32,000 nt of DNA from contig NZ_CP064950.1 in NCBI RefSeq assembly GCF_046042685.1, positions 483,475-515,474 of the forward strand, given 5' to 3'. This DNA comes from Pseudomonas sp. PLMAX. Lineage in GTDB: Bacteria > Pseudomonadota > Gammaproteobacteria > Pseudomonadales > Pseudomonadaceae. Positions 1,824 through 27,054 of this stretch are shown here, piece after piece. The notes beneath the pieces were generated by a model. That model searched no databases and had not been told where the DNA came from. It worked only from the letters and a program-made list of their open reading frames with translations. The position numbers and the translations under genes are program-made. How positions within the stretch are numbered: position 1 is the first letter of the stretch; every line of letters begins with the position of its first letter.

Positions 1824-2440
1824 GCCGAAACCTTACGAGCATCGAACGCCTCGTCTTCCTGGCTGATCTGGTCGTGCTGCATCAGGAAGCCGATCACTTC
1901 CTGAACGTATTCAACCTTACCGGTGAACTGGAAGATCTCCTCCTCCTTGTTCACCTCCTCCAGGTAACCTTCGTTCTTGAATTTCTTCAAGATGCGCTCA
2001 AGCCGCTGGCGATCCGAGCCGTCTACGGCAATAGACTTGGTCTGGTTGGCTACCATCCTCAGCGCCTCGGTGAGGCTTGGGTTCTGCGCGATGATGTTCA
2101 TCATCTTGTTCGTCTCGACCTTCTCACCGGGCGAGATCGCGTTGTCATCGCGAGCGGTACGCATGACCAAGTCGAGGAACGAAATCAGGGGGCGCAGGTT
2201 GTTTTTCAGATCCACGAACAATGCCTTCGCGGCCTTTTTGCCTTGATCGTCCAGGTCAGCATGCGTCACGAAGAACGCCATCTCCGATCCGGTCTTGGCC
2301 AGGCGCAAGTCGATCTGGCGCAGGTAAGCATCAACCTTCGCAAAATTGTCCGCGTCACTCAGGTAGGTGTGACCGTCATGGAAACTGACTTTGCAGATGA
2401 ACTTGCCGGAGATCAGTTGGGTAACGATACGGTTAAACAT
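1820..2440 (-). CDS. KITE-like small subunit (JetB/MksE/MukE-like)
   Basis: 206-aa ORF. The N-terminal 'LISGKFICK...YLSDADNFAKVDAYLRQIDLRLAKTGSEMAFFVTH' and the C-terminal 'LERILKKFKNEGYLEEVNKEEEIFQFTGKVEY' look like the two tandem winged-helix units of MukE/MksE/DUF4194 proteins. It overlaps the SMC gene stop by 8 nt (AATGTTTAA) and the next gene by 4 nt. Confidence 0.5.
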   Translation of the reverse strand: MFNRIVTQLISGKFICKVSFHDGHTYLSDADNFAKVDAYLRQIDLRLAKTGSEMAFFVTHADLDDQGKKAAKALFVDLKNNLRPLISFLDLVMRTARDDNAISPGEKVETNKMMNIIAQNPSLTEALRMVANQTKSIAVDGSDRQRLERILKKFKNEGYLEEVNKEEEIFQFTGKVEYVQEVIGFLMQHDQISQEDEAFDARKVSA

Positions 2441-6242: not shown

Positions 6243-6623
6243 TTACCAGTACGTATAGGCGGCATTTTTCATGAATGGTTCGAGCAGCAGATTGTCCTCG
6301 CTGCCCGTCTTCAGGGCAGAGAGAATTTGCTGTCTGTGGGTACGCCGCAACGGGCGTTCGCAGAACACATTCGTGAATGCGGACGGGGCTTTTCGCATAG
6401 CGTTACGCGAGAGTGGCTGGCCTGCGTCGGAGTGAAGCTTGATTCGCTTCATCTCCAGGAAGCCCTGGTAAGTCTTGGCACCTTTGATCCAGCGGCGGAC
6501 AAAGAGCGAGGAGTGATGAGTAGGGTTGGAGGCTGCCCGCTGGGTTTCCCGTTCAAAGCCAACACGGTTCTCAAAGAACCAATCCTTGAATTGCTCGTCC
6601 CGGCGCCTAAGCGTTCTAGCCAT
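6243..6623 (-). CDS. Hypothetical basic protein (126 aa)
   Basis: The ORF fills the gap between the 533-aa gene and the terminator in the same orientation. The product is arginine/lysine-rich with no recognisable motif. An overlapping plus-strand ORF (6327..6932) is the alternative, but it would be antisense to the operon. Confidence 0.5.
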   Translation of the reverse strand: MARTLRRRDEQFKDWFFENRVGFERETQRAASNPTHHSSLFVRRWIKGAKTYQGFLEMKRIKLHSDAGQPLSRNAMRKAPSAFTNVFCERPLRRTHRQQILSALKTGSEDNLLLEPFMKNAAYTYW

Positions 6624-6659: not shown

Positions 6660-8261
6660 TTAAATGCAGAGATCCTCGGTAAACAACTTTTTGCGCAAGT
6701 ACAGGTTCTTCCAATTGGAATCACGAACAAACTCCTCAGTGAAGATGTCCGGGTAGAGCTTCGCAAAGGCGTCAAAGGTGACCGGATCGAAGTTCCTGAT
6801 TGCGTCCATCGTGCGTGGATCTTTCCAGGTGCTGAGGAAATCGTCCCTGAGATGAATTGCAATCACGTGGCAATCTGGCTCCGCATGGCCGTAAGCGATG
6901 AGCTCCAGATGAGTCAGGTGATCGCGCTTTAACTCCAGCAGGTCGTACGCATCAATGCCGTGGTGGTAAATCATTAGCGCAGACACAAGCTTGGTCGCAG
7001 GCTCATGCGTCTTCAGGGTTGCGATGAGCTCTTTCTGCCTTGTCAGCAGCGCAAAAAGTACTGCGTTACAGTCGATCTTCAGCGACTTCATGAACTGTAG
7101 AGCGTCTTCTTCCGTCATGAATGGCTCTGGTACTGCGGTTCCGGCGATATCCCGAAGCTTGTTCAAGAATGCAGCGCCACCGTGTTCCGCCACAAACTCC
7201 GCCACCGAAACACCGTTAACCTGTAGAGCCCTGAGCAGCATTTTCCCGCGCTTTTCGCTCAATGGGTGTTCCAAGGCAAACCGGCGTCGAACTGAATCGT
7301 TCATCGTCTCTAGCAGCGAATGCCCCGCGCCGCGAATGCTCTCAAGGTCGAACGATTCGACGTCGCCCAAAATGCTATGGTGCACCGTAACCCTTACATC
7401 CAGGCTGTTGCACGCTTTGTGGTAACGCTCGACGTCCACCTCGTACAGCGCCGAGAGGATATTGGTAGAAGCGGTTTTTTTGAACACCTGAGTTGCGAGG
7501 TCAACAACCCGATCATCAGAGTCGGTCAACTCCGGGTTCGGGTAGTTGTACAGCTCACGCTCCAGCTTAAACATTTCCGGAAATTGCGCCATCCACCTCA
7601 GTGCCTCTTGGGAGCCCTCTTTCCCTCCTACTGCACTCATCAAGCACAACGCATCAGTCACTACAGCGCCATGGCTACGTTCGCTTAATAGGTAACCCGA
7701 TTCCACCATGTTCTGGATGAGCCCAGAACAAATCCGTGTAGCCATCGACGCCAGCGCCAAATCCTTTTTACTGGTCGCCCTGTAGGAAACGTGCCCCTCA
7801 GGCTCGTTCAGTAGGTGCCCCATCATCTGCGCCAAGCCGTTCTCGCTGTCCACGATGCCGCCAGCTTCAACGCACTCAATAGCGTTGTAGATATAGGGCT
7901 TTTCGGTACCACCTGAGATCAGGAATGAGAGCCCGGCCAGGATCTGCTCTTGCAATCGAATTGGGTTCGGGTTGATGCTCAGGCAGTGATGCAGAATTTT
8001 GGCCTGTACTACGTAATACAGCCGCCGCTCAAGCAGAATACCAATTTCAGTCTGGATCCTTTCCCGCAAGATTGATTGCTGGGCAATCGAGATGTCCAGG
8101 GCCTGAAACTTCGCTGCAAGATCTGGTATCAGCTCTTCCAGCTTTGTGGCTGCTTTATCCTGCCTGGTGAAATTGGCGTCACTCGTTAATACGCCGATGA
8201 GGCTCTTCAGCTCCATTACCTGGAGTGCTGTATCGCGGATCTTTTCCCTGGACGAGAGCAT
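6660..8261 (-). CDS. Hypothetical protein (533 aa) ending in the shared C-terminal tail ...RKKLFTEDLCI
   Basis: Long ORF. Its start ATG shares one nucleotide with the stop of the upstream exonuclease gene (TGATG). No motif recognised. The C-terminal heptapeptide matches the [FY]xx[ED]L[GSC][VIF] tail seen on other proteins in the window. Confidence 0.8.
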   Translation of the reverse strand: MLSSREKIRDTALQVMELKSLIGVLTSDANFTRQDKAATKLEELIPDLAAKFQALDISIAQQSILRERIQTEIGILLERRLYYVVQAKILHHCLSINPNPIRLQEQILAGLSFLISGGTEKPYIYNAIECVEAGGIVDSENGLAQMMGHLLNEPEGHVSYRATSKKDLALASMATRICSGLIQNMVESGYLLSERSHGAVVTDALCLMSAVGGKEGSQEALRWMAQFPEMFKLERELYNYPNPELTDSDDRVVDLATQVFKKTASTNILSALYEVDVERYHKACNSLDVRVTVHHSILGDVESFDLESIRGAGHSLLETMNDSVRRRFALEHPLSEKRGKMLLRALQVNGVSVAEFVAEHGGAAFLNKLRDIAGTAVPEPFMTEEDALQFMKSLKIDCNAVLFALLTRQKELIATLKTHEPATKLVSALMIYHHGIDAYDLLELKRDHLTHLELIAYGHAEPDCHVIAIHLRDDFLSTWKDPRTMDAIRNFDPVTFDAFAKLYPDIFTEEFVRDSNWKNLYLRKKLFTEDLCI

Positions 8262-8897: not shown

Positions 8898-10139
8898 TTA
8901 AACTCCTAGTTCCAAAGTGAATACCTTACCCTTCACGGCATTGCTTTTCAAGCGCGGAAGTATTGATTTATCTGATGTTTTTTCATATAGCTTTGCCAAT
9001 ATGTTGTCGGCCTGATCATCTTCGAATCTGCAAACCTGCTTGATGACTTTTTCCATTGGAAGTGACTTTAATAGCTCACCTACCATTGTGTTCACGTATA
9101 CAACTTTCGGGTCTTCATAGTTGCACAGGTCAACAGCCAACTCAGTGAGAAACCCAGACTCTCCAAGCTCTTCAAGATCCATTATCTTGCCGGCGCCCTG
9201 CCCCAGGACTCCGCAATAGAACAACTGAGCGGCCTGTCGAGTAGAAAAGTTAATTTTGCCTACGATTTCAGACATGAGCTCGCACTGGCTGGCATGGTGA
9301 GTCTCAAAATGGGCGTCGATCAGGTTCCGTGGCAGTAGCGCCAGCGACGTAAGGTCGCGCAGAAACTCAAGCCCAGACGTTTCGATGTATGCCATGACCT
9401 TCGGAAGCTCCATCAGCCCATCATCCCAAACCGTATTGAACGTCACACCGATACCCTGCTGGGCTCTCGTACGACCATCGATTGAGAACATGCCAAGCAG
9501 CTTTTCATGAATTTCACTGAAACTCATTTCCAGGGTTCCGTGAATGTTCTGCCTGACCTTGTGGCTGTCTTCATACTTCTGCAACTGAAGGTAGATTCTA
9601 TCAAGACCTCGCTTGCTTTCTCGAAGTGCTCCAGCAATCCTCTTAACCATCTTAGGATCGTCGGCTTTTACGTATTCCATCAGCTTTCGCTGTTCATTCA
9701 CGGTATGGAAAACCTGATAGATATCAAGAAACTCCTTGCTCTCAAAAATAGCGAAATCATCAAGTGGAACGCGCCGCAGCTCTGGAAATTTGACGTAATA
9801 GCCGCACTCAAAACCATCCATGTGATTGTTAATCGCTTGGCGGTTTGATCTTGCAAGTGTCCCGACCACCCATGTCACCATTGATTTATAGTCAGGCGCC
9901 GGAGCCGAAAGGGAGATCGCTATTATTTTCTCAATGGCACTCTTATAAACCTCGCGATCCATCGTGGGGAAAAGGTGCTTGGCCTCTAAAAGCTCTTCTG
10001 CCGTATGACCTTCAGAAATCACGAGCAAAATGAAGTCCTGGCACTGCTTGATCAGTGCTCTCACCCCTTCCTGTTCAATTTCTGGCGGGGAGCCCAGGTC
10101 GTGGCTACCAAGCGAGAAAACTACATTTTCACTGATCAT
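8898..10139 (-). CDS. Hypothetical protein (413 aa) ending in the shared tail ...KGKVFTLELGV
   Basis: Long ORF in a visibly AT-richer stretch and first gene of a minus-strand operon. No motif recognised apart from the C-terminal tail. Confidence 0.8.
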   Translation of the reverse strand: MISENVVFSLGSHDLGSPPEIEQEGVRALIKQCQDFILLVISEGHTAEELLEAKHLFPTMDREVYKSAIEKIIAISLSAPAPDYKSMVTWVVGTLARSNRQAINNHMDGFECGYYVKFPELRRVPLDDFAIFESKEFLDIYQVFHTVNEQRKLMEYVKADDPKMVKRIAGALRESKRGLDRIYLQLQKYEDSHKVRQNIHGTLEMSFSEIHEKLLGMFSIDGRTRAQQGIGVTFNTVWDDGLMELPKVMAYIETSGLEFLRDLTSLALLPRNLIDAHFETHHASQCELMSEIVGKINFSTRQAAQLFYCGVLGQGAGKIMDLEELGESGFLTELAVDLCNYEDPKVVYVNTMVGELLKSLPMEKVIKQVCRFEDDQADNILAKLYEKTSDKSILPRLKSNAVKGKVFTLELGV

Positions 10140-14953: not shown

Positions 14954-16840
14954 ATGGCCGACTCGATTGATACCGAGATTTCCAACCTTCTTCAACGGGC
15001 ACTGAAAGAGGGGCGCGAGGACGTCGCTAACGCATTGCGTCACCTTACCCCGGTTTCCGAACTGGCGAAGTCTCTCGCCACCACTTTGAAGCCAAGCGCC
15101 CACTTCACTGATGAATGGCGCGGCCTCTTAACCCGCAAGACCTACGGCCTGTTGGATGGCAGGGCTCTTACCTCCACAGCGCTGATGCAGAATGGGGAGT
15201 ACAGAGAGTTCCTGCTCAAGAAGCTACAAGGTCTGTCAGGGCAGGAAAGTGCTCACCACCTGACCCACGGCCTCATCTCTGCTGGCTTGCACTCTGAGGC
15301 GCTTCAGGGGCTCTCCAGCGATGAGGAGATCAAGTCGTTCAAGGCGTACTTCCAACAATATCTGAATAATGTCTTACCTCACTCTCAGTTCTTGTTCTAC
15401 ACCGAAACCGGTCAAGACCACTCGAACACACGAGATACCATCAAAATCCTGGACATGCTGGACTTGGATTTTCCGTCGACCTTCACGCCGTCTAATTATC
15501 CCGATCCAAAAAACGACAACACCAAGCCATGGGGTGATCAGCGCATTGAAATGAACATTGAGCTGGTCGGTTCAGTGATGACAGAGCTCAAGCTTTCTGT
15601 GCCTCAGCTAAGCACTGCACCTGGTGGTGGCTACAAGTGGTTGGAAGCGGATCTTCCAGCAGCTGTCACCCTGGAAAATCAGCGTGTCCAGAAGCTTGGC
15701 GGCTGGCACAAGGAAAACTTCCCGAGGTTTCTGCCTGTGATCGTTCCTGAGTCAAGTCTCGGCGACATGTTGGCACAAGGGGCAATTCCAGTTTGCCCAC
15801 TGAAAACCGTTCATTTCACGTCCAACCGGGGGGCCGGCTTTGACACGACGGAGCCAAGCAGGGAGTTTGTTCCGGTAACGCCGAATCATAGGGTGACGGA
15901 CAAAGATATCCGCCTCGCGTTTTCATTCTTTCCTCCCCAACTGGTAACCGGCCTTATCGAGAACGACTCACAGAGTCTGGTGATGATCCCGTTACAAACG
16001 ATCCCTCTGCTCGCGCCGACGAGTCCAAACATCGCGGATTCACTGAAGGCTGCAGTACGATTCCATCGACCAGAGTTGCTGATCAGTGATCAAAGCCGGG
16101 TGACCGGTGATTACACGAAAAACAGCCCGCTACCGCTTTACCTCAAGGGCTTTAAGATCCGGCAAGGGGAATACAGCCACCTGGACATCACTGACAACCT
16201 TAGCAGGCACCCTGATTTTATCGATTCACTCCTGCCTGCTGAGGTAGACAAACTTGCCAAATACTTCGTAGTCAAGAAGGAGTACGGTCGGGATTTCAAT
16301 AGGTTCTATGTAAATGAGCAAAGCGGTTTGACCACCCCTGAAAACGTGGCCCTGGCAAAACGCTCGATTGAAGCCCTTACCAATGCAATTGGGTACCCGC
16401 CAGCCGTTCACTATCGTGGATCACCGGAGTTCATCAAGGCCCTGGCAGAAGCCAAAGTCTACAGCTGTGACCGCTCCATATTCAGCAACCATAAAAATAT
16501 GAGTGGGGACTGGTACTCCACTGCTGAAGGCGTTCGTTGCGGCGGCACCATCGGGGAGACTGGCGGATTCGGCGAGTACGCTGATATGCCGTTCGACGAG
16601 CTGGTCATTAAGGGTACTCGCTTGAAAGACCCGGCCACCGGCTTCAACAAGCAGAAACAGGTCATCCTAGGCATCCTCGACCGCTACCCGCTTGAGGACG
16701 TTGTAGGCCTGGCGAAAACCGATGCTCAGTACAGGTTCCTGATGGACAACTTCGACCTGATGCCGGTAAGGCACTTGCTGCCGAAGCGCCTTGAGCTGGT
16801 TGTGGCTGGTAAGCAGTTCTCGAGCGAGCTTGGGTTCTGA
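14954..16840 (+). CDS. Hypothetical protein (628 aa) ending in the shared tail ...AGKQFSSELGF
   Basis: Long ORF with a strong AGGAG RBS and a terminator just downstream. No catalytic motif recognised. The C-terminal tail matches the window-wide motif. Confidence 0.85.
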   Translation: MADSIDTEISNLLQRALKEGREDVANALRHLTPVSELAKSLATTLKPSAHFTDEWRGLLTRKTYGLLDGRALTSTALMQNGEYREFLLKKLQGLSGQESAHHLTHGLISAGLHSEALQGLSSDEEIKSFKAYFQQYLNNVLPHSQFLFYTETGQDHSNTRDTIKILDMLDLDFPSTFTPSNYPDPKNDNTKPWGDQRIEMNIELVGSVMTELKLSVPQLSTAPGGGYKWLEADLPAAVTLENQRVQKLGGWHKENFPRFLPVIVPESSLGDMLAQGAIPVCPLKTVHFTSNRGAGFDTTEPSREFVPVTPNHRVTDKDIRLAFSFFPPQLVTGLIENDSQSLVMIPLQTIPLLAPTSPNIADSLKAAVRFHRPELLISDQSRVTGDYTKNSPLPLYLKGFKIRQGEYSHLDITDNLSRHPDFIDSLLPAEVDKLAKYFVVKKEYGRDFNRFYVNEQSGLTTPENVALAKRSIEALTNAIGYPPAVHYRGSPEFIKALAEAKVYSCDRSIFSNHKNMSGDWYSTAEGVRCGGTIGETGGFGEYADMPFDELVIKGTRLKDPATGFNKQKQVILGILDRYPLEDVVGLAKTDAQYRFLMDNFDLMPVRHLLPKRLELVVAGKQFSSELGF

Positions 16841-16859: not shown

Positions 16860-16887
16860 AACGCTCCCCTCGGGGAGCGTTTTTGTG
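16860..16887 (+). terminator. Rho-independent terminator after the 628-aa gene
   Basis: ACGCTCCCC-TCG-GGGGAGCGT followed by TTTTTG: a 9-bp stem (16861-16869 / 16873-16881) and a T-run (16881-16885). Confidence 0.8.
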
Positions 16888-16897
16888 CCTGGTGACT

Positions 16898-17782
16898 TCA
16901 GATGGCCAGGGAGTGCATGAAGGCTTTTGCGCGTACCTGCAAACTTTGGATGCTCTCCACAGCCGACTCCAGGCCAAGCTTAAAGGCCATCAACCTGAGC
17001 TCGTCAGTGTTCAGTTGATTGGTGATCGCTTCGTCATCCATGGCAAGGATCTCGCCGATAACCACCACGGCAGCGCTACGGTGCTTGGTTACCAGCTCCT
17101 CGCTATCGCCGTCGAACTTAGACCGCTTGATCATGTGCCTCATGACCGACGCCCAGTTATCCGGGGTGCCACGATAGCCGATACTGGCAGCAATGTTCTT
17201 AAGCACTACGTCCTTTGCCCTTGGGGTAACGGCGTACTCTCGCGCCCGGCTGAAGGATTGGTTTGAACAGTGCACAGATACCAGATCTTCAGCATAAGGC
17301 TTCCACAGTACCGGGATCTTCACCAACACCTCGTCATCCAGGGAGGCGAAGACCTGCAGCATGGAATGCTTTTCCGACCGCTTCAGCATCTGCCCAATGA
17401 TGTCCAGGCCAAGCTTGGGCCGGTCATTGGTCAACGCGTGGGTAAGGCTCGATTGCCAAAGATCGGCAGTCGTCGTCTCAAGCGCGCCCTGGAGCGACCA
17501 CATCTTGAGTTGCGTCCTGGCGAACGTTTCAGACATGTACTTCATGGTGGACAGGAAAACTCCCTTCCCCATACCTGTCGTTCGAGTCACGGTGTCAATC
17601 AGGGCCCTGTAGGCGCCCTCGTCCACGTCGTGACAAATGTCATGACCACTGACCAGCAAGGTCTTACTGATACCCACTGACCTGTATGGGTTGGAGGCGA
17701 CATTGAGAATCCATGCGTCGAATTCACCGTTCAGCCTGCTCCCAGGACTCAGCTTGCGGCCAATTTCTCCACTTAACGTCAC
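16898..17782 (-). CDS. Hypothetical protein (294 aa) with relaxed version of the shared tail ...RAKAFMHSLAI
   Basis: ORF in the same orientation as the upstream 413-aa and 565-aa genes and last gene of that operon. No motif recognised. Confidence 0.75.
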   Translation of the reverse strand: MTLSGEIGRKLSPGSRLNGEFDAWILNVASNPYRSVGISKTLLVSGHDICHDVDEGAYRALIDTVTRTTGMGKGVFLSTMKYMSETFARTQLKMWSLQGALETTTADLWQSSLTHALTNDRPKLGLDIIGQMLKRSEKHSMLQVFASLDDEVLVKIPVLWKPYAEDLVSVHCSNQSFSRAREYAVTPRAKDVVLKNIAASIGYRGTPDNWASVMRHMIKRSKFDGDSEELVTKHRSAAVVVIGEILAMDDEAITNQLNTDELRLMAFKLGLESAVESIQSLQVRAKAFMHSLAI

Positions 17783-17812
17783 ACCAACCTCACAATCTTG
17801 TTGTAAGCCATT

Positions 17813-19054
17813 TCAGACCCCCAGCTCTTGGGTAAATATCCTTGCCTGACCCACTAGCGATGCCTTGGCCTTCCAGCTCACGTCATCGGTCATCTCGGAC
17901 ATTGCAGCTGCCAAATCTGCTGGCAGTGCGCGCTTAAAAAGCGTCTGGGGAGGTATGCCATGAAATAACTTTTCAATGTCTACCTTGAGCGTATCAAAGG
18001 AGTCGCCCATAGGTCTCCTCCATTGCATCTCTTTCGCAAGCGAAGCCACCTTATCGATGGGGTTCAGGCCAGCACGGTAATCATCAGCTGTCAGCTCAAC
18101 GCCGGCGTCTTTGGCTTGGCACAACAGGCTGGCCATACCGGTCATCATGCCCCACAGCTTGCCCTGCCTGAGCAGCTCTACAGGCTTGTTGATGGAGTCA
18201 ATGTTGAAGGTGTCGAGCGCGAACCTCACTGCCGAATTCCAATACGCCAGGTTGTTGGCCTGGTTGAGATGCTCGCAAAGCGCCTCAGAGCTCTTCCAGA
18301 AGCTCATGACTGCCTTATTTAGGCTCACGGGCCCCATCGTCCCTTTGCCGGCCTGTACGCGGCTCAGCAGCTCCAGCTGGAGGGCTATGTCGCCACCTCG
18401 AGTTGGAACCATGATGTCAGGGGCGTCTTTGGCAAGAACCTGCTTAAGCGAATCAGACATTCCCGCATACACGACCTTAAACAGATCGAGATCCTCAGTC
18501 TTCAAAAGCGTTGTGGCAATAAAGGGCATATGAAATGCATCTTTGATCAGATGCTCATACCCGCCGCCAGGCTCCATTGGCCCGGCGTTCAGCGGCTCAG
18601 CCAAGACCTGTGACAGGCCCTGACGCACTGGCGACTCGAGCCACTCAGCCGGCTTCATGCGCTCCATGGCTTTGGTGCTGGTGTGCACCGTCAGCGACAT
18701 CGAGTTCTGGAAGCCCACCAGGTCATCCTGCGACTTGGGGAAAGCTGCCGGGAAGCTCTCCATGGCAAACCTCAGAAACTCAGCCGCATGGCGCCCCTCC
18801 CCCAGTTCTACTAGAGCGCTGCACAGGAAGAATGGATCGAGCCTTCCCTCAGAGCGATGCTTGGCGGAGGTTTCATGGGCCTCCAGCTCTGGGTACAAAG
18901 CTAGGGCACGATCATAGTTTTCAGCAACCGAGATCGGCGTTTCATTCAGGCGCCACATGACATCACGCGCCAGGGCCAGACCCATTTCAGTCCTGAGAGG
19001 GTCGTTCATCAGGGCCGGCTGGCCCTGGCTACGCTCTTCTTTGCGGGCTGTCAT
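17813..19054 (-). CDS. Hypothetical protein (413 aa) ending in the shared tail ...GQARIFTQELGV
   Basis: Long ORF. Its start overlaps the stop of the GHKL gene (ATATGACA, 4-nt ATGA overlap). No motif recognised apart from the tail. Confidence 0.8.
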   Translation of the reverse strand: MTARKEERSQGQPALMNDPLRTEMGLALARDVMWRLNETPISVAENYDRALALYPELEAHETSAKHRSEGRLDPFFLCSALVELGEGRHAAEFLRFAMESFPAAFPKSQDDLVGFQNSMSLTVHTSTKAMERMKPAEWLESPVRQGLSQVLAEPLNAGPMEPGGGYEHLIKDAFHMPFIATTLLKTEDLDLFKVVYAGMSDSLKQVLAKDAPDIMVPTRGGDIALQLELLSRVQAGKGTMGPVSLNKAVMSFWKSSEALCEHLNQANNLAYWNSAVRFALDTFNIDSINKPVELLRQGKLWGMMTGMASLLCQAKDAGVELTADDYRAGLNPIDKVASLAKEMQWRRPMGDSFDTLKVDIEKLFHGIPPQTLFKRALPADLAAAMSEMTDDVSWKAKASLVGQARIFTQELGV

Positions 19055-20748
19055 ATGGAAAGCTCTCCCTGGTACTCGTTGTGCTCTCTCCTGGCGGGGG
19101 CTCTACGCTTCTCCTCCACCTGTGGCGCAGGGATGGTGAAATCCACCTCGGCAGCCGCTTTCTTGAACGCCTTGACCAGGGTCATTTCCCCGATCTCATC
19201 GCGCATGATTCGACGCAGCTTGAACTCACCGGTGGTGAAGGATTCGCCATGGTGGGAATGCATCACGTGGTTGAGTTCGTGGTGCAGCACGTCAATGATG
19301 TCAGGGATCTTGAACCCTTCTTTACGCACCATTTCAGGGTTCAGCATGATACTGATGCGGTTATTTTGGGTGTCTTTAGCGTTCAGTCCGACAACAGAGC
19401 CGTAAACGAACCCAGGCTGAATCAGCAGATCATCCTGGAAGAATTGCCCCTTGGCATCCATCTTGATCCCAAGTGCAGTCCGGTAGCTCTCGTTTTCCAG
19501 GAGCACGCTCATCATCTTGCTCCAGCCGGCAGCGATCTTCGCATTGCGCTGCAGGCTCATACTGCTGGCGATCTGCGCGGAATGCGTGTGCGCGTTCTCC
19601 CTGCTCGTGTCGGAGTCGGAGAATTTCACTTTGAAGTTCGGCGGGTACCACTGACTTGGGATCTTGCTGATCTTATCGTCAAGCTTGCTTTTGATGTCCT
19701 TGACCTTGTCCAGCAGCCCGGTGAAAGGATGCATGGCGTCGAGCGAGCTGATTTCATCGGCTAGCGCGTTCAACTTTTCCATCACGGAGCTTGCGGTCAT
19801 GTTGAGGGACGCAGCCTGCTGCATTACCTCGTCCTGCTCCGCCTTGGATAGGGACTCGAATCTTACCGCCCGCTCATTCAGGGTCAGATCGATATCCCCG
19901 CTGAGCTTCAACTTCTCGCGGTCGTTTGCAAGATCTTGCATGATCTTGTTCAGGATCTCGGTCTTATCTTTGCTCAGCGAATCCCGGTTGGAGGTCAACA
20001 TCTCCAAGGAATGCCCTTTTAGCTCAAGAGCCCCGTGGAAAGCTGCGCCATCAGTCCACAATCTGGACTTAAACATCGCGAGTCCATTCATCCTGACCCA
20101 AATCGTGGACGTGGATGAGTAAGTGCTCTCGTAGTCGCCGAACGTAAGGTGCCCCAAAGCGGTTTCAAGTTTGTAGGGCTGAGGGGTTTTCTTGGCGGTG
20201 AGCGTCTCGCCGTTCAATGTGACTTTGATGTCTTTGCCGAGGTTGGAGGCTGATACCAGCTCGCGTAGGGCCTCTTCCATGCTCCAGGCGCTGTTATCCT
20301 CAGTCGTCATCTCGACTTCAAGGCGTACACCCTTACGGACGTCAGCGACTTCCTTCCAGCCATATTTGGCGGCGGTGCCCACGACCTCGAGGTTCTGAGT
20401 TTTGATCTTGTAGTTGAGATGCGCAAAGGCCAACAGAACCTTGGCATACCCGAAGCCACCGGTATTCCCATCCTCTTTCTGGCTCCCGCCCATCTTGAGG
20501 AACACGTTGATCAGGACATCCTGGTTCATGCCCTTGCCGTCGTCATCACACACGACCAAGAGCTTTTTAGCGTCATAGTCCTGCTTGATCGTGAAATCGA
20601 TGTTTTTGGCGCCAGCATCACGAGAGTTTTGCAGCGCTTCACGGGCCCATGCCAACTTGAAGTCGTTGTAGGAGAGCTTCTCCTTTACGAAGAAGTCGCC
20701 TGGTAGCTGAATGGTGCCGGCCTGGAGTTCGGTGTCTGGGGTATGCAT
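19051..20748 (-). CDS. GHKL (Bergerat-fold, HATPase_c-type) ATPase fused to a C-terminal HExxH metallopeptidase-like module; ends ...NEYQGELSI
   Basis: 565 aa. N-box 'EALQNSRDAG' (E37/N41/D44), G1 box 'VVCDDDGKGM' (res ~65-74) and G2 box 'TGGFGYAKV'. Near the C-terminus is 'VLHHELNHVMHSHHGE' (res ~488-503, nt ~19240-19287), i.e. HExxH with a further His six residues after the second His (metzincin-like spacing, with H instead of G in the middle). Confidence 0.75.
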   Translation of the reverse strand: MHTPDTELQAGTIQLPGDFFVKEKLSYNDFKLAWAREALQNSRDAGAKNIDFTIKQDYDAKKLLVVCDDDGKGMNQDVLINVFLKMGGSQKEDGNTGGFGYAKVLLAFAHLNYKIKTQNLEVVGTAAKYGWKEVADVRKGVRLEVEMTTEDNSAWSMEEALRELVSASNLGKDIKVTLNGETLTAKKTPQPYKLETALGHLTFGDYESTYSSTSTIWVRMNGLAMFKSRLWTDGAAFHGALELKGHSLEMLTSNRDSLSKDKTEILNKIMQDLANDREKLKLSGDIDLTLNERAVRFESLSKAEQDEVMQQAASLNMTASSVMEKLNALADEISSLDAMHPFTGLLDKVKDIKSKLDDKISKIPSQWYPPNFKVKFSDSDTSRENAHTHSAQIASSMSLQRNAKIAAGWSKMMSVLLENESYRTALGIKMDAKGQFFQDDLLIQPGFVYGSVVGLNAKDTQNNRISIMLNPEMVRKEGFKIPDIIDVLHHELNHVMHSHHGESFTTGEFKLRRIMRDEIGEMTLVKAFKKAAAEVDFTIPAPQVEEKRRAPARREHNEYQGELSI

Positions 20749-20766
20749 TTACGGTTTCTCTTATTC

Positions 20767-21171
20767 TTATGGGCTTGGTGTTTGGTCTTTGGCCGGAGGC
20801 AACAGGCCTGAGGAAGGATGCTTTTCGATGAGCTTCAGGTGGCGCTTATCAAAGGCATCGACCGTGAACCCTTCTTTCTCTGAAAACCCAATCGTGAAGG
20901 TTTCCGCGACAAGCCCTTCGAAATGCTTTTCAGCGACTCTGGGCGCTAATTGATCTAGCACCTCCTGAATCAACCTAGCCGGATCCTGAAGTCGTGCCAA
21001 TAATTGCTCTTTGTTGTCAAATCGAAGCCGGTACGCGACCGATTCCGAAGACACAACCTCACCAGGTTTCCAACGCTTCGAGAAATGCTGTGTGAATTGG
21101 ATGAAATGGGGCTTTCTCCCATAGTCAAAACCGAAGTGTGCCATCACCGGTGCTGGTTTGATCGCCATCAT
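20767..21171 (-). CDS. Hypothetical protein (134 aa), first gene of the GHKL operon
   Basis: ORF with a GAGGA RBS. It ends 19 nt upstream of the GHKL gene start. No motif recognised. Confidence 0.65.
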   Translation of the reverse strand: MMAIKPAPVMAHFGFDYGRKPHFIQFTQHFSKRWKPGEVVSSESVAYRLRFDNKEQLLARLQDPARLIQEVLDQLAPRVAEKHFEGLVAETFTIGFSEKEGFTVDAFDKRHLKLIEKHPSSGLLPPAKDQTPSP

Positions 21172-21806: not shown

Positions 21807-22244
21807 ATGGACGGGAAGCGCCAGGATCGACTCGCAAAGCTTGTGCCGAAGGTAGGGCCGGATGACGCAGGGAAACTCTTAGGTGAGTCAGGTGAGTGGC
21901 GCAACTTCGCTCGCCGCATACAGCGCCACCCTGCGATCCTGGAGGAGTTAAAGGCACGCCAGGCCCACCGGTGCCCTGTATGCAATTGCGGCCTTGAGGG
22001 GGCGCTGACGATCCATCACGTGTCGTACATCAACCGATGCGTTACCACGGACACTATTGAGCTCACGCACGCTACTGCTACGCGCTCCGAGCGGACTGTT
22101 AAGGCACCTCCCTGTGCCGGGTGCCCATCCATGGCCCGCTGCCTTGGCTTCTTGGCCCTCGTTCATAACGCGTGTCACGTAAAGATTCACGCGCATGAGA
22201 GGGTTCTAAAAGGAGTCGCTACTTCATCGCAGGGCGATGCCTGA
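21807..22244 (+). CDS. HNH-type endonuclease-like protein
   Basis: 145 aa. 'HRCPVCNCGLEGALTIHHVSY' (CxxC plus HH) and 'LALVHNACHVKIH' (N...CHxxxH) reproduce the HNH beta-beta-alpha metal-finger pattern. An extra 'CAGCPSMARC' cysteine pair lies between them. Confidence 0.6.
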   Translation: MDGKRQDRLAKLVPKVGPDDAGKLLGESGEWRNFARRIQRHPAILEELKARQAHRCPVCNCGLEGALTIHHVSYINRCVTTDTIELTHATATRSERTVKAPPCAGCPSMARCLGFLALVHNACHVKIHAHERVLKGVATSSQGDA

Positions 22245-23735: not shown

Positions 23736-24371
23736 TCAGGTTTCGATAAACCATCTGATGGGGAGTGCTTTCATCGCGATGCAGGGGCCGGATTGCATGG
23801 TGACTACCTGACCCATATTTTCCAGGGCTTTGGTAACCAAGCCCGCACCAGCAAGGGGATGAGCAATACTCGAAAAGCCGGCGCCGAGGATGTATCGAGA
23901 GTGGGCTTCAATTTCCAGCTTACTGCCGATGAGCCAGGCTTCGCCACTGCGTCCGAGGGAGGCAATCATAGTGTCATGAAGCTCAAGAGCCTCTTCCAGC
24001 GCGCCTGGCTTCCATTGGCAAAGCACAATTTTTTCTGCCGGGACTTTCAGTTCATCATCGATGGTCATGAATTGCCAGGCGTTGGATACAGCTTCGGCCT
24101 GGATAATCCAGTGTTCCTGAGGCTCACCATCGGCGTTTAGCCTCGTGGTGAGTCTTAACGTACCGTTCAAACTGACATCGTCAGGAAGCTTGTCCACGAA
24201 GATGACCACAACCTTTTCGGCGCCAATCGGGACAACCCCGGACAACCCAGGAAAAATCCTGTGAGTCATGATCGGGGCGCCAGCAATGGGGGAATACAGC
24301 GGGTCGGCGGCGATAAAGGGGCTCTGAAGCCCCTTGGCAACCATTAACCCTTGGTCATTGATTAATTCCAC
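23736..24371 (-). CDS. Hypothetical protein (211 aa) translationally coupled to the patatin gene
   Basis: The ORF start overlaps the patatin stop by 10 nt. No motif recognised. Confidence 0.7.
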   Translation of the reverse strand: MELINDQGLMVAKGLQSPFIAADPLYSPIAGAPIMTHRIFPGLSGVVPIGAEKVVVIFVDKLPDDVSLNGTLRLTTRLNADGEPQEHWIIQAEAVSNAWQFMTIDDELKVPAEKIVLCQWKPGALEEALELHDTMIASLGRSGEAWLIGSKLEIEAHSRYILGAGFSSIAHPLAGAGLVTKALENMGQVVTMQSGPCIAMKALPIRWFIET

Positions 24372-26704
24372 GTGTAAGCCTCTTCAATCTTACGGCGCAT
24401 GGTAGTGGTCTTAGCCGGCGTGGGCAAGATGCGCCCAAGCAAGACCGAGCCCAAATTCCAATCATCATATCGACCATCGGTAAGGGAGGCAGTTAGAACG
24501 TCAGCATCCATCAGCGCCTGGGAAGGTAGGTTGAAGTTCGGCTTATGCCCCCTCTCCTCCAGCAGCTTATTCTCAATCGTGGCCAGGCTGATCAAGCGCC
24601 CCATTGCGAATCTGAGGTGTTTGTCAGCATCCCAGCGTAGGAGCCCGTGAGCAGCTTGTACGCCTGCCGCATGAAGCTTATCTCGCTCGCCCACAGGGGC
24701 ATGGAAGTCACCTGTACCCACTGTGCCAGTGTTGATGAGCCCGATGTTCTCCATAGTCTCAAGCGAAGGCATGTAGTTCGCACGCATGAGGTTTTTGATC
24801 GCAGAAGAGGCCAGCGAGCCCATGACAGCGCCAGTGCCACTCTTCATTGAGGCAAATGGATGCAGGATGCCATCCTTGACTTTCGAAAGCTTTCTGGAGA
24901 AACGCTCTGGCTCGAAGTGAACATCGATACCCACCGGCGTGGTGCCGTTACGTGCCAGCTCCTGTAGGGCTTCGTTCTCGATATTGTCTTCAAGAGCGGA
25001 GAGCATGAACCCGATAGTGTTCTCTCTCACCTCCTCCTGAGTTTTGTAGGCATCCGCGAACATTTTGTGAGGAAAATTTGTCGTCAGACCGCCATCGACC
25101 AGTCGCATGTTGTCGACTTTCATGGCCTGGAAGACGAATGGGAGGTTCATACTGGCCCTGACAGCCTTTTTGATTGGCATGTCAATATAACTGTGATGTT
25201 CAGAGGATGCTCGAACGAAAACTGGCTTAAAATCGCCGCCGTTATCGTAGTCACCGGTGCCTGGATCTGGCTCGCGGGCCACTGTGAATTCTTTGTCACG
25301 AGTCAGCTTACGCTTAATGTTGCTAGGGGTGATCGGGTAGTAACTGTCGGTTACGGCTACGCCAAACTCCTTAAAGCCGTAGTCGGGATTCATTTCACCC
25401 AAGGCCTTGAGCTGGGTGAAAGTGATATTGCGCATCTCCGTGAGCGTTCTGATCGGAGGATCAAGCCTCTCGAGGTGGGCATTGCTCACCTGTTTCAAGC
25501 GTTCCTGGATGATGTCCCCGATGAAATCTTCGACAGAGTCGCTGTTCTCGAGCGCATAAGGTCGTTTTACCCTGACACAGGTCAGTGCAGCCTGGAATGC
25601 TTCGCTACGACCCAGCAAATCATGGAAGCCTAGGGCTCCTTGCGCAATTTTCTTTGAGTGCAGGTACTTATTGAATTTGCCCATGGCAATGTCATAAATT
25701 TCCTGCAGGCTCATTTTGCAAGTAGGGTGCTTACCCTCCTCGATCAGCCTAAGGTCTTGTTGGACTCTTGAGTCTCCCCAGTGAGTCCAGGTTTTCACCG
25801 ACTCCTGGGAGTGATGCGCAAGCTCTGGCAAAAGGAATTTGCTCGCGAACTTGGACAGCATATTGCCTTCGTGCCACTGGTGCTCATCGAGACTCTTGGA
25901 TGAGATGGCATCGACAAGCTTTGTCACTGCCTTGAATTTTACAGTGCTCTCTGCGTAGAACTGAGCGAACCTCGAATGCTTCACGATCTCGTGAATTTCG
26001 CCGGCTGAGTAACCCAGGGCAATTGGGAGCCCCATCAGGGCACCTGCGGAGGTACCGCCAATGCGCTTAATGCCTTTGAGTAGGCCTGTATCCTCCAGAA
26101 CTTCCACAATCCCGGAATAAGCCATGCCCTTGGCACCACCACCTTGAAGTATCAGAACCTCTGGTTGGCGGCGATGACCGTGCTCCATGTCGTATTCAAG
26201 GCGCTGAGTCATTTGCTCTGCACGCTCGACACTTTCCCCAAACATCCCTTCCAGATGCTGCGTTATGGTCTGGGATTGGTTCATTTCTGTAAGTGTTGGG
26301 TTTGCTTTCTGCGATGTTTGTGCAACGACGATCTGAGCGCGCCTTAAGTGAAGGACTAGATCGTTGAAATCGTTGAGGATGTGCTTGTCCCCTTGCTTCA
26401 GTCGTGCATGAAAGCGTGAGAAAAGCTCGTCACCTGGAGAGTAATCAACGGACGGATCACGATGCTGTCCATGCACTCTATCGATAGAACAAATGTCGTG
26501 GATCGCGTTGTTATAGATCCTTGCTCGATACTCAGGATTTTGTAGGGTAGAAATGATGCCTGGGGCAATGTCATCAAGCGCAGCGATCAGCTCGTTTTCA
26601 GCTTTAGAAATGAAAACAGCCAACTTATGGGTCGTGTACTCTTTCAGGTAAGTAAGGAGAGCGTGCTGACGAGCTTTCTGGACTCGCTCTAGGATATCTG
26701 CCAT
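24362..26704 (-). CDS. Large patatin-like phospholipase (ExoU/VipD-style architecture)
   Basis: The track ORF begins at TTG 26716, but the ATG at 26704 has a GAGG RBS 6 nt upstream (MADILERV...). Oxyanion loop 'LILQGGGAKGMAYSG', nucleophile elbow 'IGGTSAGAL' (GxSxG) and catalytic Asp 'MRLVDGGLTTNFP' (DGG) roughly 350 residues downstream. A ~185-aa helical N-terminal extension and a ~200-aa C-terminal region flank these. Confidence 0.88.
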   Translation of the reverse strand: MADILERVQKARQHALLTYLKEYTTHKLAVFISKAENELIAALDDIAPGIISTLQNPEYRARIYNNAIHDICSIDRVHGQHRDPSVDYSPGDELFSRFHARLKQGDKHILNDFNDLVLHLRRAQIVVAQTSQKANPTLTEMNQSQTITQHLEGMFGESVERAEQMTQRLEYDMEHGHRRQPEVLILQGGGAKGMAYSGIVEVLEDTGLLKGIKRIGGTSAGALMGLPIALGYSAGEIHEIVKHSRFAQFYAESTVKFKAVTKLVDAISSKSLDEHQWHEGNMLSKFASKFLLPELAHHSQESVKTWTHWGDSRVQQDLRLIEEGKHPTCKMSLQEIYDIAMGKFNKYLHSKKIAQGALGFHDLLGRSEAFQAALTCVRVKRPYALENSDSVEDFIGDIIQERLKQVSNAHLERLDPPIRTLTEMRNITFTQLKALGEMNPDYGFKEFGVAVTDSYYPITPSNIKRKLTRDKEFTVAREPDPGTGDYDNGGDFKPVFVRASSEHHSYIDMPIKKAVRASMNLPFVFQAMKVDNMRLVDGGLTTNFPHKMFADAYKTQEEVRENTIGFMLSALEDNIENEALQELARNGTTPVGIDVHFEPERFSRKLSKVKDGILHPFASMKSGTGAVMGSLASSAIKNLMRANYMPSLETMENIGLINTGTVGTGDFHAPVGERDKLHAAGVQAAHGLLRWDADKHLRFAMGRLISLATIENKLLEERGHKPNFNLPSQALMDADVLTASLTDGRYDDWNLGSVLLGRILPTPAKTTTMRRKIEEAYTWN

Positions 26705-27054
26705 GAAATGCCTCAAGACCCGGTTTTTGTTATTTGAATATTAATGACACGGGCCATTAGAGTGAAGCAAGCACCCAAGCGCCAAAATGAAGCACTTTAA
26801 TTGATAGCAAAATACTGGTTTTCGGAGCTGTGAGGCATGTGCATCCATCCTGAAATTAGAGACCTCAAACCTAAATGAGAAGCAGTCTACAACTCCCGCA
26901 GAAGCACCTTAGCAGACTAGCAATTACGACAGACCCAGGCCTCAGTGCCGGTGATTGGCCACCATTTTGATGTTAAAAAATGCCAAATTACTCGCCTATT
27001 TCAACAAAGTAACTTTCCTGCAATAAAAATCACAGGTCATTCTCTGCCATTCAT

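What the first reader, a model, noticed from the sequence alone, without database searches (positions are those of the whole stretch)
16898..21171. GHKL ATPase fused to an HExxHxxxxxH metallopeptidase-like module, heading a coupled four-gene ORFan operon
The 565-aa protein has a complete Bergerat ATP-binding fold at its N-terminus (EALQNSRDAG, DDDGKGM, GGFGYAK). About 450 residues later it has 'HHELNHVMHSHH', which is HExxH plus a third His at metzincin spacing. I am not aware of a characterised family that combines a GHKL ATPase with a zincin-like site in one chain.

The gene is preceded by a 134-aa ORFan (19-nt gap) and overlaps the next 413-aa ORFan by ATGA. A 294-aa ORFan follows. The last three proteins all carry the shared C-terminal tail.

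GHKL/MORC-type ATPases recur in prokaryotic conflict systems. An ATP-gated protease or nucleic-acid-sensing switch with dedicated partners is therefore plausible, but the target and role (defence, anti-defence, plasmid establishment) are unknown.
Basis: partly seen in the sequence, partly recalled or inferred. Interest (0 to 1): 0.65.

Follow-up and report, generated by a model that had tools for sequence, protein, structure and literature searches.

The report
rIIA-like ATPase fused to zinc protease
A 565-residue protein on a roughly 0.95-Mb Pseudomonas megaplasmid joins an Hsp90/rIIA-type ATP-binding module to a Wss1-like zinc protease; the fusion is conserved across a large, unstudied family in uncultivated big phages and megaplasmids, but its three "partner" genes are only local megaplasmid neighbours.

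Summary
The 565-aa ORF (19051-20748, minus strand) has all GHKL motifs and an HExxHx5H site, inside a tight co-directional four-gene cluster.

- The protein is not an ORFan. A profile search finds 1,151 clusters at E<=1e-30, most 470-560 aa and full length. 264 of 267 inspected members keep HExxH.
- The N-module is Hsp90/TRAP1-like and phage rIIA-like by fold. It shares T4 rIIA's four-motif layout, including an Arg motif (TSNRD against PSRE).
- The C-module is a small zincin closest to Wss1/WLM and the minigluzincins. It is not a metzincin.
- The three neighbours occur only on related Pseudomonas megaplasmids, where the whole backbone is syntenic. They are absent from about 105 phage or MAG loci that carry the fusion.
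- No defence-system model matches, and I found no literature on the fusion.

Most likely it is a stand-alone, ATP-regulated protease used by large mobile elements. The target is unknown.

The "shared tail" is a separate feature of the whole replicon. About 10% of sampled megaplasmid ORFs, unrelated and without recognisable domains, end in F-[ST]-x-[DE]-L-G-[LVI]-COOH. Conservation is at the peptide level. The pattern was found in 0 of 1,685 control ORFs.

The parts
19051..20748 (-). 565-aa GHKL-zincin fusion protein. It is identical to WP_408601218.1, annotated 'ATP-binding protein', from Pseudomonas sp. PLMAX.
19909..20748 (-). Residues 1-280: GHKL (Bergerat-fold) ATPase module of the Hsp90/rIIA type. 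Motifs: N-box E37/N41/D44 (nt 20617-20640), D69xGxG, G97GFG100, and the Arg motif T252-S-N-R255-D256 (nt 19981-19995).
   Evidence: Pfam HATPase_c_3 31.2 bits. Foldseek PDB: TRAP1/Hsp90 at E 4e-11, MORC at 1e-9. Foldseek BFVD: rIIA proteins at E about 1e-11. Motif layout matches T4 rIIA. hhalign to T4 rIIA gives 86.7% probability over residues 9-101.
19666..19908 (-). Residues 281-361: poorly conserved, mostly helical linker modelled with low confidence.
   Evidence: pLDDT 44-73 and variable alignment columns
19129..19665 (-). Residues 362-540: small zincin metallopeptidase domain, made of a backing helix, a three-strand sheet and the active-site helix. H490-E-L-N-H494-x5-H500-G-E-S-F lies at nt 19249-19281.
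   Evidence: Domain model pLDDT 96. The top nine Foldseek PDB hits are all zincins: selecase, proabylysin, Wss1 (five entries) and acel_2062. A PDB profile search hits Wss1. Pfam WLM matches 12 of 22 members, best E 2.4e-7.
19054..19128 (-). Residues 541-565: disordered C-terminal extension ending in YQGELSI, a degenerate copy of the replicon-wide tail.
   Evidence: pLDDT below 50. Tail comparison.
20767..21171 (-). 134-aa upstream ORF. It is restricted to the megaplasmid family, has no recognisable domain and carries no tail.
17813..19054 (-). 413-aa ORF overlapping the fusion gene by ATGA. It is restricted to the megaplasmid family and carries the tail FTQELGV (nt 17816-17836). There is a weak TPR-like hint at residues 63-97. 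It is not rIIB-like.
16898..17782 (-). 294-aa ORF, restricted to the megaplasmid family, with the tail FMHSLAI (nt 16901-16921).
16860..16881 (.). GC-rich hairpin (AACGCTCCCC-TCGG-GGGAGCGTT) between the convergent 294-aa and 628-aa genes. It probably acts as a terminator and closes the cluster.
   Evidence: The same hairpin sits at the same place in pPL1.
14954..16840 (+). 628-aa convergent neighbour, a megaplasmid-specific ORFan with the tail FSSELGF.
8898..10139 (-). Unrelated 413-aa ORFan with the tail FTLELGV. This shows the tail is not specific to the operon.
6660..8261 (-). Unrelated 533-aa ORFan with the tail FTEDLCI.

Best explanation
The 565-aa protein is a stand-alone, two-module enzyme of a large uncharacterised family. 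The family is carried by big uncultivated phage-like contigs and by roughly 1-Mb Pseudomonas megaplasmids.

Shown:
- The N-terminal 280 residues are a catalytically intact GHKL ATPase of the Hsp90/rIIA type. It has a general-base Glu, a Mg-binding Asn, an adenine-binding Asp, a Gly-rich lid and a downstream Arg motif.
- A variable helical linker follows.
- The C-terminal part is a compact Wss1/minigluzincin-like zincin with an invariant HExxH...H metal site.

Inferred mechanism:
- ATP binding closes or dimerises the GHKL module, as it does in Hsp90, MORC and MutL.
- R255 senses the gamma-phosphate.
- The change is passed through the linker to the zincin, which cleaves a specific target protein.
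- In effect this is an rIIA-type ATPase whose variable C-terminal effector is a protease.

The most likely role is host takeover or establishment for the mobile element, that is, removal of a host protein or a DNA-bound protein. The target is unknown.

The three flanking genes are probably co-transcribed. They are lineage-specific backbone genes of the megaplasmid, not obligatory partners.
For: - Motifs and invariance.
- Pfam HATPase_c_3 above its cut-off.
- Fold matches to TRAP1/Hsp90 (E 4e-11) and to phage rIIA (E about 1e-11).
- hhalign to T4 rIIA at 86.7% probability.
- Zincin domain by sequence and by fold.
- Family size and full-length coverage: 6,674 hits, 1,151 of them at E<=1e-30.
- 69 of 72 loci first inspected (70 viral plus two megaplasmid) and most MAG homologs have HExxH about 200 aa after the Arg motif.
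- No conserved neighbour across loci.
- Neighbours of phage homologs are replication genes (topoisomerase II, clamp loader, helicase, SbcC).
- The megaplasmid cluster lies between tmk and LigA.
Against: - There is no biochemical evidence of any kind.
- The WLM score for this protein is just under Pfam's cut-off, and the Foldseek E-values for the zincin domain are weak, 0.009 to 0.08.
- I could not inspect model coordinates, so the metal-site geometry and the position of R255 relative to the ATP site are unverified.
- D69 is replaced in a few orthologs.
- Similarity to rIIA is limited to the N-module. No rIIA PHROG hit appeared and no rIIB-like partner is present.
- None of three family members matched any cultured phage genome. 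The 'phage' context therefore rests on IMG/VR's classification and on PHROG hits of neighbouring genes.
Confidence: 0.6

Rival explanations
1. The four genes form a dedicated multi-component conflict system (defence or anti-defence). The GHKL protease is the ATP-gated effector, and the three tail-bearing ORFans are its sensors, partners or substrates.
For: - Tight co-directional packing with an ATGA overlap.
- The same four genes, in the same order, occur on all related megaplasmids down to about 40% identity.
Against: - On those megaplasmids the entire region from MvaT and patatin through tmk to LigA is syntenic, so co-occurrence is not independent evidence.
- Profile HMMs of the three partners find nothing within 10 kb either side of the fusion gene in about 105 phage or MAG loci.
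- There are no PADLOC hits.
- The 134-aa protein has no tail.
- In most megaplasmid lineages the fusion protein ends in SYGM or GYGM, not in the tail.
Confidence: 0.12
2. A protease for DNA-protein crosslinks or DNA-bound proteins. The GHKL module acts as a DNA clamp, as in MORC, MutL and topoisomerases. The Wss1/SprT-like zincin degrades proteins trapped on the element's DNA, for example stalled type II topoisomerase, or host nucleoid or restriction proteins as ArdC is thought to do.
For: - The closest zincin families are Wss1/WLM and SprT.
- Neighbours are DNA-metabolism genes in both settings. In the window these are LigA, tmk, RNase T and Mks. In phage loci they are topoisomerase II, clamp loader, helicase and SbcC, with the topoisomerase II large subunit 3-5 kb away in L004 and L005.
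- MORC structures are also strong fold matches.
Against: - No DNA-binding domain was detected.
- The best fold matches are protein-clamp Hsp90s, not MutL or gyrase B.
- The catalytic sensor is an Arg motif, as in Hsp90 and rIIA, not the Lys of an S5-fold transducer.
- A neighbourhood in a replication module is weak evidence in phages.
Confidence: 0.2
3. A chaperone-like or scaffolding protein whose zincin motif is structural or acts only on the protein itself. Under this reading it has no trans-acting protease function.
For: - Minigluzincins, the best fold matches, are self-inhibited or regulated by oligomerisation (established knowledge; matches).
- Hsp90-like fold.
Against: The catalytic Glu and all three His residues are invariant across the 28 aligned homologs, down to 24% identity, and HExxH is kept in 264 of 267 members. 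This argues for retained catalysis.
Confidence: 0.08

Closest known systems
Phage T4 rIIA (N-terminal GHKL module)
   Same: - Same order and spacing of four motifs: N-box, DxGxGM, GGFG, and [ST]x(N/S)R(D/E)xLS about 158-160 residues later.
- rIIA proteins dominate the viral fold matches.
- hhalign probability 86.7% over residues 9-101.
- Both are carried by large mobile elements. rIIA orthologs are reported to have highly variable C-terminal domains (PMC7824862).
   Different: - T4 rIIA has no HExxH or zincin.
- No rIIA PHROG hit.
- No rIIB-like neighbour.
- No sequence similarity beyond about residue 100.
Hsp90 / TRAP1 / HtpG
   Same: - Best PDB fold matches, E 4e-11.
- A Bergerat fold followed by an Arg-containing motif that resembles the Hsp90 middle-domain LSRE catalytic loop. 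That resemblance is from my own knowledge of Hsp90.
   Different: - No Hsp90 C-terminal dimerisation domain.
- No Pfam HSP90 hit.
- About 11-13% identity.
- The Arg motif lies directly after the GHKL sheet rather than deep in a separate middle domain.
MORC / MutL-type GHKL ATPases
   Same: HATPase_c_3 Pfam family. MORC2, MORC3 and MORC4 structures match at E about 1e-9.
   Different: No evidence for an S5-fold transducer with a catalytic Lys. MutL and PMS2 match only the N-box, at E 1.6.
Wss1 / WLM and SprT/SPRTN DNA-dependent metalloproteases
   Same: - HExxHx5H followed by (D/G)-E/S-x-F, as in Wss1 'HELTHNVHGEHDSSF'.
- Pfam WLM, SprT-like and YgjP-like hits.
- Wss1 structures are among the top fold matches.
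   Different: - Scores are near or below family cut-offs.
- No SIM, VIM or ubiquitin-related modules.
- DNA dependence is untested.
Minigluzincins (selecase, proabylysin)
   Same: Top Foldseek matches for the isolated C-domain. They are compact zincins of about 110 residues.
   Different: - Those proteins are stand-alone archaeal peptidases.
- Their third metal ligand and regulation differ.
- TM-scores are only about 0.3-0.5.
ArdC (conjugative-plasmid ssDNA-binding protein with a zincin domain)
   Same: Both are mobile-element proteins that pair a non-protease N-module with a small Wss1/SprT-like zincin, and both are proposed to act on host proteins. This comparison is from my own knowledge and from PMC7824862.
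   Different: The ArdC N-domain binds ssDNA and is not a GHKL ATPase. No sequence match was seen.

Membership tests
GHKL (Bergerat-fold) ATPase superfamily | Motif I, ExxxNxxD (catalytic Glu and Mg-binding Asn) | tested here: met
   E37, N41 and D44 are invariant in 28 homologs. The motif is present in 263 of 267 members.
GHKL (Bergerat-fold) ATPase superfamily | Motif II DxGxG and the Gly-rich lid GxxGxG | tested here: met
   D69-D-G71-K-G73-M and G97GFG100 are present. D69 is replaced in a few orthologs, and DxGxG is present in 232 of 267 members.
GHKL (Bergerat-fold) ATPase superfamily | Curated profile match and Bergerat fold | tested here: met
   HATPase_c_3 scores 31.2 bits against a cut-off of 25. 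Foldseek matches Hsp90 and MORC N-domains with probability 1.00.
Hsp90 family | Middle and C-terminal dimerisation domains, and a family profile match | tested here: not met
   No Pfam HSP90 hit. Only the N-terminal roughly 300 residues align structurally. The C-terminus is a zincin.
T4 rIIA family | N-terminal GHKL module with the rIIA motif layout | tested here: met
   Motif positions are 37/69/97/252 here against 47/81/117/275 in T4 rIIA. BFVD fold matches support this.
T4 rIIA family | Homology along the rest of rIIA, and an adjacent rIIB | tested here: not met
   hhalign aligns only residues 9-101. No rIIA PHROG hit. The downstream 413-aa protein compared with T4 rIIB gives 0.3% probability.
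MORC / MutL | S5-fold transducer domain with a catalytic Lys | tested here: inconclusive
   MORC structures match at E about 1e-9. However, the conserved post-GHKL motif carries Arg (TSNRD). Model coordinates could not be inspected.
Zincin metallopeptidases (WLM/Wss1-like) | HExxH on an active-site helix, plus a third ligand | tested here: met
   H490, E491, H494 and H500 are invariant. The motif lies at the end of helix 481-493, preceded by a three-strand sheet. The third His sits 6-8 residues after HExxH across the family.
Zincin metallopeptidases (WLM/Wss1-like) | Curated WLM profile above its gathering score | tested here: inconclusive
   23.6-25 bits against a cut-off of 26 for this protein. 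12 of 22 members match at E<=0.1, best 2.4e-7. The PDB profile search hits Wss1 at E 0.013.
Zincin metallopeptidases (WLM/Wss1-like) | Zincin fold | tested here: met
   The top nine PDB fold matches of the pLDDT-96 domain model are all zincins, with probabilities 0.41-0.99 (0.89-0.99 for the best six) and E 0.009-0.45.
Metzincins | HExxHxxGxxH with the conserved Gly, plus a Met-turn | tested here: not met
   The sequence is HELNHVMHSHH, with His where the Gly should be. Metzincins (karilysin, MMP-11) match only at E>=1. The Met-turn was not assessed.
Known anti-phage defence systems | Match to any PADLOC-DB model | tested here: not met
   None of the four proteins matches at E<=0.01.
Self-contained four-gene system | Partners co-occur with the fusion gene outside one syntenic replicon family | tested here: not met
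   HMMs A4, A5 and A6 hit only megaplasmid loci L001, L002, L082-L084, L087 and L089.

The most novel reading that the evidence does not exclude
This reading has two linked parts.

(1) The GHKL-zincin family is a new class of ATP-gated protease. Giant phages and megaplasmids would use it in place of a classical rIIA. That would give a handle on what rIIA-type ATPases do.

(2) On this megaplasmid lineage the protein has acquired a copy of a C-terminal signal of about 15 residues (...S-L-x-Phi-x-[GA]-x-Phi-F-[ST]-x-[DE]-L-G-[LVI]-COOH). The signal marks about 10% of the replicon's proteins, all soluble ORFans without recognisable domains. It would be an export or translocation signal. Candidate machines are the Dot/Icm-like T4SS reported for pMPPla107-type megaplasmids, or the plasmid-borne flagellar-type export apparatus or SecA paralogue seen on pPL1. 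The megaplasmid would then deliver a large effector repertoire, including this protease.
Probability: 0.15. Interest if true: 0.85.

Novelty: new variant of a known kind. Interest (0 to 1): 0.55.

Why it matters
- ATP-dependent proteolysis in bacteria and phages is known almost entirely from AAA+ machines. A conserved fusion of a GHKL/Hsp90-type ATPase to a zincin, with more than 1,000 diverged members, would be a different solution and has not been studied.
- The N-module has the layout of T4 rIIA, whose molecular activity is still unknown. A relative whose output domain is a recognisable enzyme gives an assayable read-out: find the cleaved substrate, and learn what the ATPase senses.
- The replicon-wide C-terminal peptide could answer a separate question that the pMPPla107 papers left open: whether these megaplasmids secrete effectors (PMC3136466).

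Tried and rejected
- DNA and protein searches of cultured phage genomes with the window region and with three family members found nothing.
- A megablast search of 24 kb of the window against plasmids found nothing.
- PADLOC and NCBIfam gave no family. Only a sub-threshold match to the sacsin N-terminal ATP-binding domain appeared.
- A sequence search of the PDB with the whole protein gave only noise.
- The idea that the 413-aa protein is an rIIB analogue was rejected (hhalign probability 0.3%).
- PDB profile searches with the 294-aa and 134-aa families returned nothing useful. The 413-aa family gave only a weak match to designed TPR proteins.
- I looked for function through extra fused domains in long family members of 780-2,573 aa. 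No further Pfam domains were found.
- A conserved-neighbour analysis across 70 viral loci found no recurrent partner.
- tblastn with T4 gp39 and T4 rIIA against all loci gave only marginal topoisomerase II hits.
- I tested whether the tail is a DNA repeat, attC site or REP element. This was rejected: synonymous codons, stop codons and downstream DNA all vary.
- I tested whether the tail-bearing proteins are paralogues. They are not.
- The first genome-contig scan, with the single protein, found no relatives. An earlier attempt with alignment A1 failed with an error.
- Four literature searches for a GHKL/HATPase-zincin fusion found nothing.
Full report
**1. What is at the coordinates**

Four co-directional ORFs lie on the minus strand: 134 aa (20767-21171), 565 aa (19051-20748), 413 aa (17813-19054) and 294 aa (16898-17782). 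They are separated by 18 nt, an ATGA overlap and 30 nt respectively. A GC-rich hairpin at 16860-16881 lies between the last gene and a convergent 628-aa gene. The same hairpin sits at the same place on a related plasmid. A simple consensus scan found no internal sigma-70-like promoter. It flagged only two weak terminator-like sites, fewer than in shuffled controls. Co-transcription is therefore plausible but not shown.

**2. Replicon**

The window also encodes the following:
- MksE, a DUF3584 (MksF/JetC-type) protein and an adjacent 428-aa ORF with no Pfam match, together resembling a condensin operon
- an RNase T-like exonuclease, YfbR-like and NIF phosphatases, and TerD
- NAD-dependent ligase, dTMP kinase, a patatin-like protein and MvaT

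The 565-aa protein is identical to WP_408601218.1 ('ATP-binding protein', Pseudomonas sp. PLMAX), which lies on a 948,989-bp contig. Orthologs of 40-53% identity lie on Pseudomonas replicons of 0.45-1.17 Mb. These include P. silesiensis pPL1, Pseudomonas sp. FeN3W, P. serbica, P. aeruginosa and P. nitroreducens. The window is backbone of a Pseudomonas megaplasmid.

**3. The fusion is real and conserved**

Pfam HATPase_c_3 matches above its cut-off, and WLM matches residues 452-510 just below its cut-off. In 28 homologs down to 24% identity the invariant residues are E37, N41, D44, G71, G73, G97-G100, R219, T252, N254, R255, D256, H490, E491, H494 and H500.

An exhaustive profile search of 1.84 billion cluster representatives gave 6,674 hits. 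Of these, 1,151 have E<=1e-30, and most are 470-560 aa and cover both modules. Among 267 inspected members:
- 263 have the N-box
- 251 have GGFG
- 222 have the Arg motif
- 264 have HExxH, with the third His 6-8 residues after it, followed by [DN]-E-x-[FY]

**4. The two modules**

The AlphaFold2 model has a mean pLDDT of 79.9. Confidence is high for roughly residues 30-280 and 400-535 and low for the linker at 280-365.

*N-module.* Against the PDB, the model matches TRAP1, Hsp90 and HtpG best (E 4e-11), followed by MORC2, MORC3 and MORC4 (about 1e-9). Against predicted viral structures, phage rIIA proteins dominate (E about 1e-11). T4 rIIA has the same four motifs with near-identical spacing: 47/81/117/275 in rIIA against 37/69/97/252 here. 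This includes '[ST]x(N/S)R(D/E)xLS' about 158-160 residues after GGFG. T4 rIIA has no HExxH. hhalign gives 86.7% probability over residues 9-101 only. From my own knowledge, the Arg motif resembles the Hsp90 'LSRE' catalytic loop. I could not check its geometry because model coordinates are not exposed.

*C-module.* Modelled alone, the C-domain (residues 362-540) has pLDDT 96. Its topology is backing helices, a three-strand sheet, the HExxH helix and then two more helices. The nine best PDB matches are all zincins: selecase, proabylysin, five Wss1 entries and acel_2062. PprI and CapP follow further down the list. E-values are modest, 0.009 to 0.45. Sequence profiles agree with the fold result:
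- Wss1 in the PDB at E 0.013
- Pfam WLM in 12 of 22 members
- Pfam YgjP-like in 10 of 22 and SprT-like in 3 of 22

The spacing HExxHx5H is shared with metzincins, but the diagnostic Gly is a His here and metzincins match only at E>=1. It is therefore not a metzincin.

**5. Where the family lives, and with what**

A scan of IMG/VR found 70 loci, mostly on contigs of 100-400 kb. A GTDB scan added two Pseudomonas replicons and 33 MAG contigs from many phyla. Neighbouring genes in nine viral loci hit phage families for topoisomerase II, clamp loader, helicase, an SbcC-like protein and NUDIX. Other contexts show ribonucleotide reductase, HNH nucleases and many small ORFs.

No cultured phage genome in INPHARED matched the three family members tried. 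The viral assignment therefore rests on IMG/VR's classification and on these neighbouring genes.

No neighbouring gene recurs across loci. Profile HMMs of the 134-, 413- and 294-aa proteins hit only the syntenic megaplasmid loci, and none of about 105 other loci. On the megaplasmids the entire stretch is collinear: MvaT, patatin, two ORFs, tmk, the 134-aa homologue, the fusion gene, the 413-aa homologue, the 294-aa homologue, the 628-aa homologue on the opposite strand, and LigA. Co-occurrence there reflects backbone synteny. It is not evidence for a functional unit. The 413-aa protein is not rIIB-like. No PADLOC model matches any of the four proteins.

**6. Mechanism**

Shown: an intact GHKL site, an intact zincin site, one chain, stand-alone inheritance, and carriage on mobile elements.

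Inferred: nucleotide-driven closure or dimerisation of the GHKL module regulates, or positions a substrate for, the zincin. This would be an rIIA-type ATPase with a protease as its variable C-terminal effector. rIIA orthologs are described as having a GHKL module plus a highly variable C-domain (PMC7824862).

Two target classes are plausible.
- *A host factor that would otherwise block the element.* This is the analogy with rIIA.
- *A DNA-bound or trapped protein.* This is the analogy with Wss1, SprT and ArdC, and it fits the replication and repair neighbourhood in both phages and megaplasmids.

I rate the identity and architecture as near certain. I rate the general 'ATP-regulated protease' mechanism at about 0.6, and either specific target class at 0.2-0.3.

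**7. The tail**

Six of 29 window proteins end in [FY]xx[EDSG][LF]x[LVIF]-COOH. Orthologs on pPL1 keep the tail even though they share only 36-63% identity overall.

| ORF set | ORFs with the strict pattern |
|---|---|
| Window plus 217 kb sampled from pPL1, ORFs of at least 100 aa | 23 of 234 |
| Shadow ORFs in the same sequence | 0 of 279 |
| Phage and MAG loci | 0 of 1,685 |

Further properties:
- The pPL1 consensus is F-S-x-D-L-G-L. Upstream positions that were not used for selection are also biased: S at -15, L at -14, G/A at -10 and a hydrophobic residue at -8.
- Codons, stop codons and downstream DNA all vary, so selection acts on the peptide.
- None of 17 tail-bearing proteins has a Pfam domain, a transmembrane segment or a signal peptide, and they are not paralogues.
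- By contrast, 143 tail-less pPL1 ORFs hit 116 Pfam families.
- Other megaplasmid lineages carry lineage-specific variants on the same orthologs, for example ...LRLSL...NLDF and ...DDLGL.
- The fusion protein carries only a weak version of the tail, and only in the PLMAX/pPL1 clade. Elsewhere it ends in SYGM or GYGM, and phage homologues have no tail.

The tail is therefore a targeting-type signal of the whole replicon, not an operon signature. Possible receptors or machines:
- the Dot/Icm-like T4SS reported for pMPPla107 (PMC3136466), although I did not verify that this replicon has one
- the flagellar-type export apparatus or the SecA paralogue seen on pPL1
- an adaptor or degron system, or a binder of C-terminal peptides of the PDZ, TPR or clamp type

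This remains unresolved.

**8. Novelty and verdict**

No described family or paper combining a GHKL ATPase with a zincin was found in the curated libraries or the literature. NCBI labels the protein only 'ATP-binding protein'. I classify it as a new variant of a known kind: rIIA/Hsp90-type GHKL proteins of mobile elements, here with a zincin effector domain. Interest is moderate, 0.55. The four-gene 'system' should be dropped. The tail deserves its own follow-up.

Noticed in passing
window 6660-8261(-), 8898-10139(-), 14954-16840(+), 16898-17782(-), 17813-19054(-), 19051-20748(-); pPL1 loci L002, L079, L080, L081: A C-terminal peptide signal occurs across the whole replicon. About 10% of sampled megaplasmid ORFs end in F-[ST]-x-[DE]-L-G-[LVI]-COOH, and the motif extends to about 15 residues. 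All carriers are soluble, unrelated to each other and without Pfam domains. Conservation is at the peptide level, not the DNA level. The strict pattern was found in 0 of 1,685 control ORFs from phage and MAG loci.
   Followed up: partly
L078-L081 (P. silesiensis pPL1, NZ_CP143488.1: 500000-549999 and 970000-1137999): The sampled 200 kb of this megaplasmid encodes what looks like a full flagellar gene set: FlgE/F/G, FlgH, FlgI, FlgK, FliF, FliI-like ATPase, FliM, FliN, FliP, FliR, FlhB and FlhC. It also encodes a SecA paralogue, RecA, two-partner-secretion proteins and a second Mks/DUF3584 protein. The exact positions were not mapped.
   Followed up: no
window 537-6146 (-): A likely condensin operon next to the region studied: MksE (1820-2440) and a 1,237-aa DUF3584 protein of the MksF/JetC type (2433-6146), with a 428-aa ORF beside them that has no Pfam match. 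Whether it acts in plasmid maintenance or as a Wadjet-like defence was not examined.
   Followed up: no
L004 14833-17088, L005 16063-18633; T4 genome L077: In the two closest full-length viral homologue loci, a topoisomerase II large-subunit gene lies 3-5 kb downstream of the GHKL-zincin gene. PHROG topoisomerase II families hit two to four of the 90 neighbour ORFs scanned from eight viral loci; which loci these belong to was not mapped. In T4, rIIA sits directly beside topoisomerase genes 60 and 39. This may be conserved positional synteny with rIIA.
   Followed up: partly
L022, L026, L027 (IMG/VR contigs), GHKL-zincin gene starting at about 9995: tblastn aligns residues 9-515 of the query in one stretch, but the ORF called with the standard code stops after 44 codons. 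This suggests stop-codon reassignment in these phage contigs, or a sequencing error shared by all three.
   Followed up: no
window 21807-22244 (+): A 145-aa protein with Cys/His motifs and a weak PADLOC HNH_I-A hit (E 0.0017). It is conserved at 46-69% identity on the related megaplasmids, on the strand opposite the cluster. It may be a small HNH or zinc-finger protein.
   Followed up: no
L053 9758-13276 (+): A 1,172-aa family member ends in ...SDDDEELPFN, which resembles the acidic SSB C-terminal tip DDDIPF. It also has a second HExxH and a DUF5661 hit.
   Followed up: no
window 24362-26716(-) and 6243-6623(-); GHKL orthologues P0007-P0038: A second type of C-terminal ending is rich in aromatic residues. 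The patatin-like protein ends in ...EEAYTWN and a 126-aa ORF ends in ...AAYTYW. Most megaplasmid GHKL-zincin orthologues end in [SG]-Y-G-[YM]. This is unexplained.
   Followed up: no
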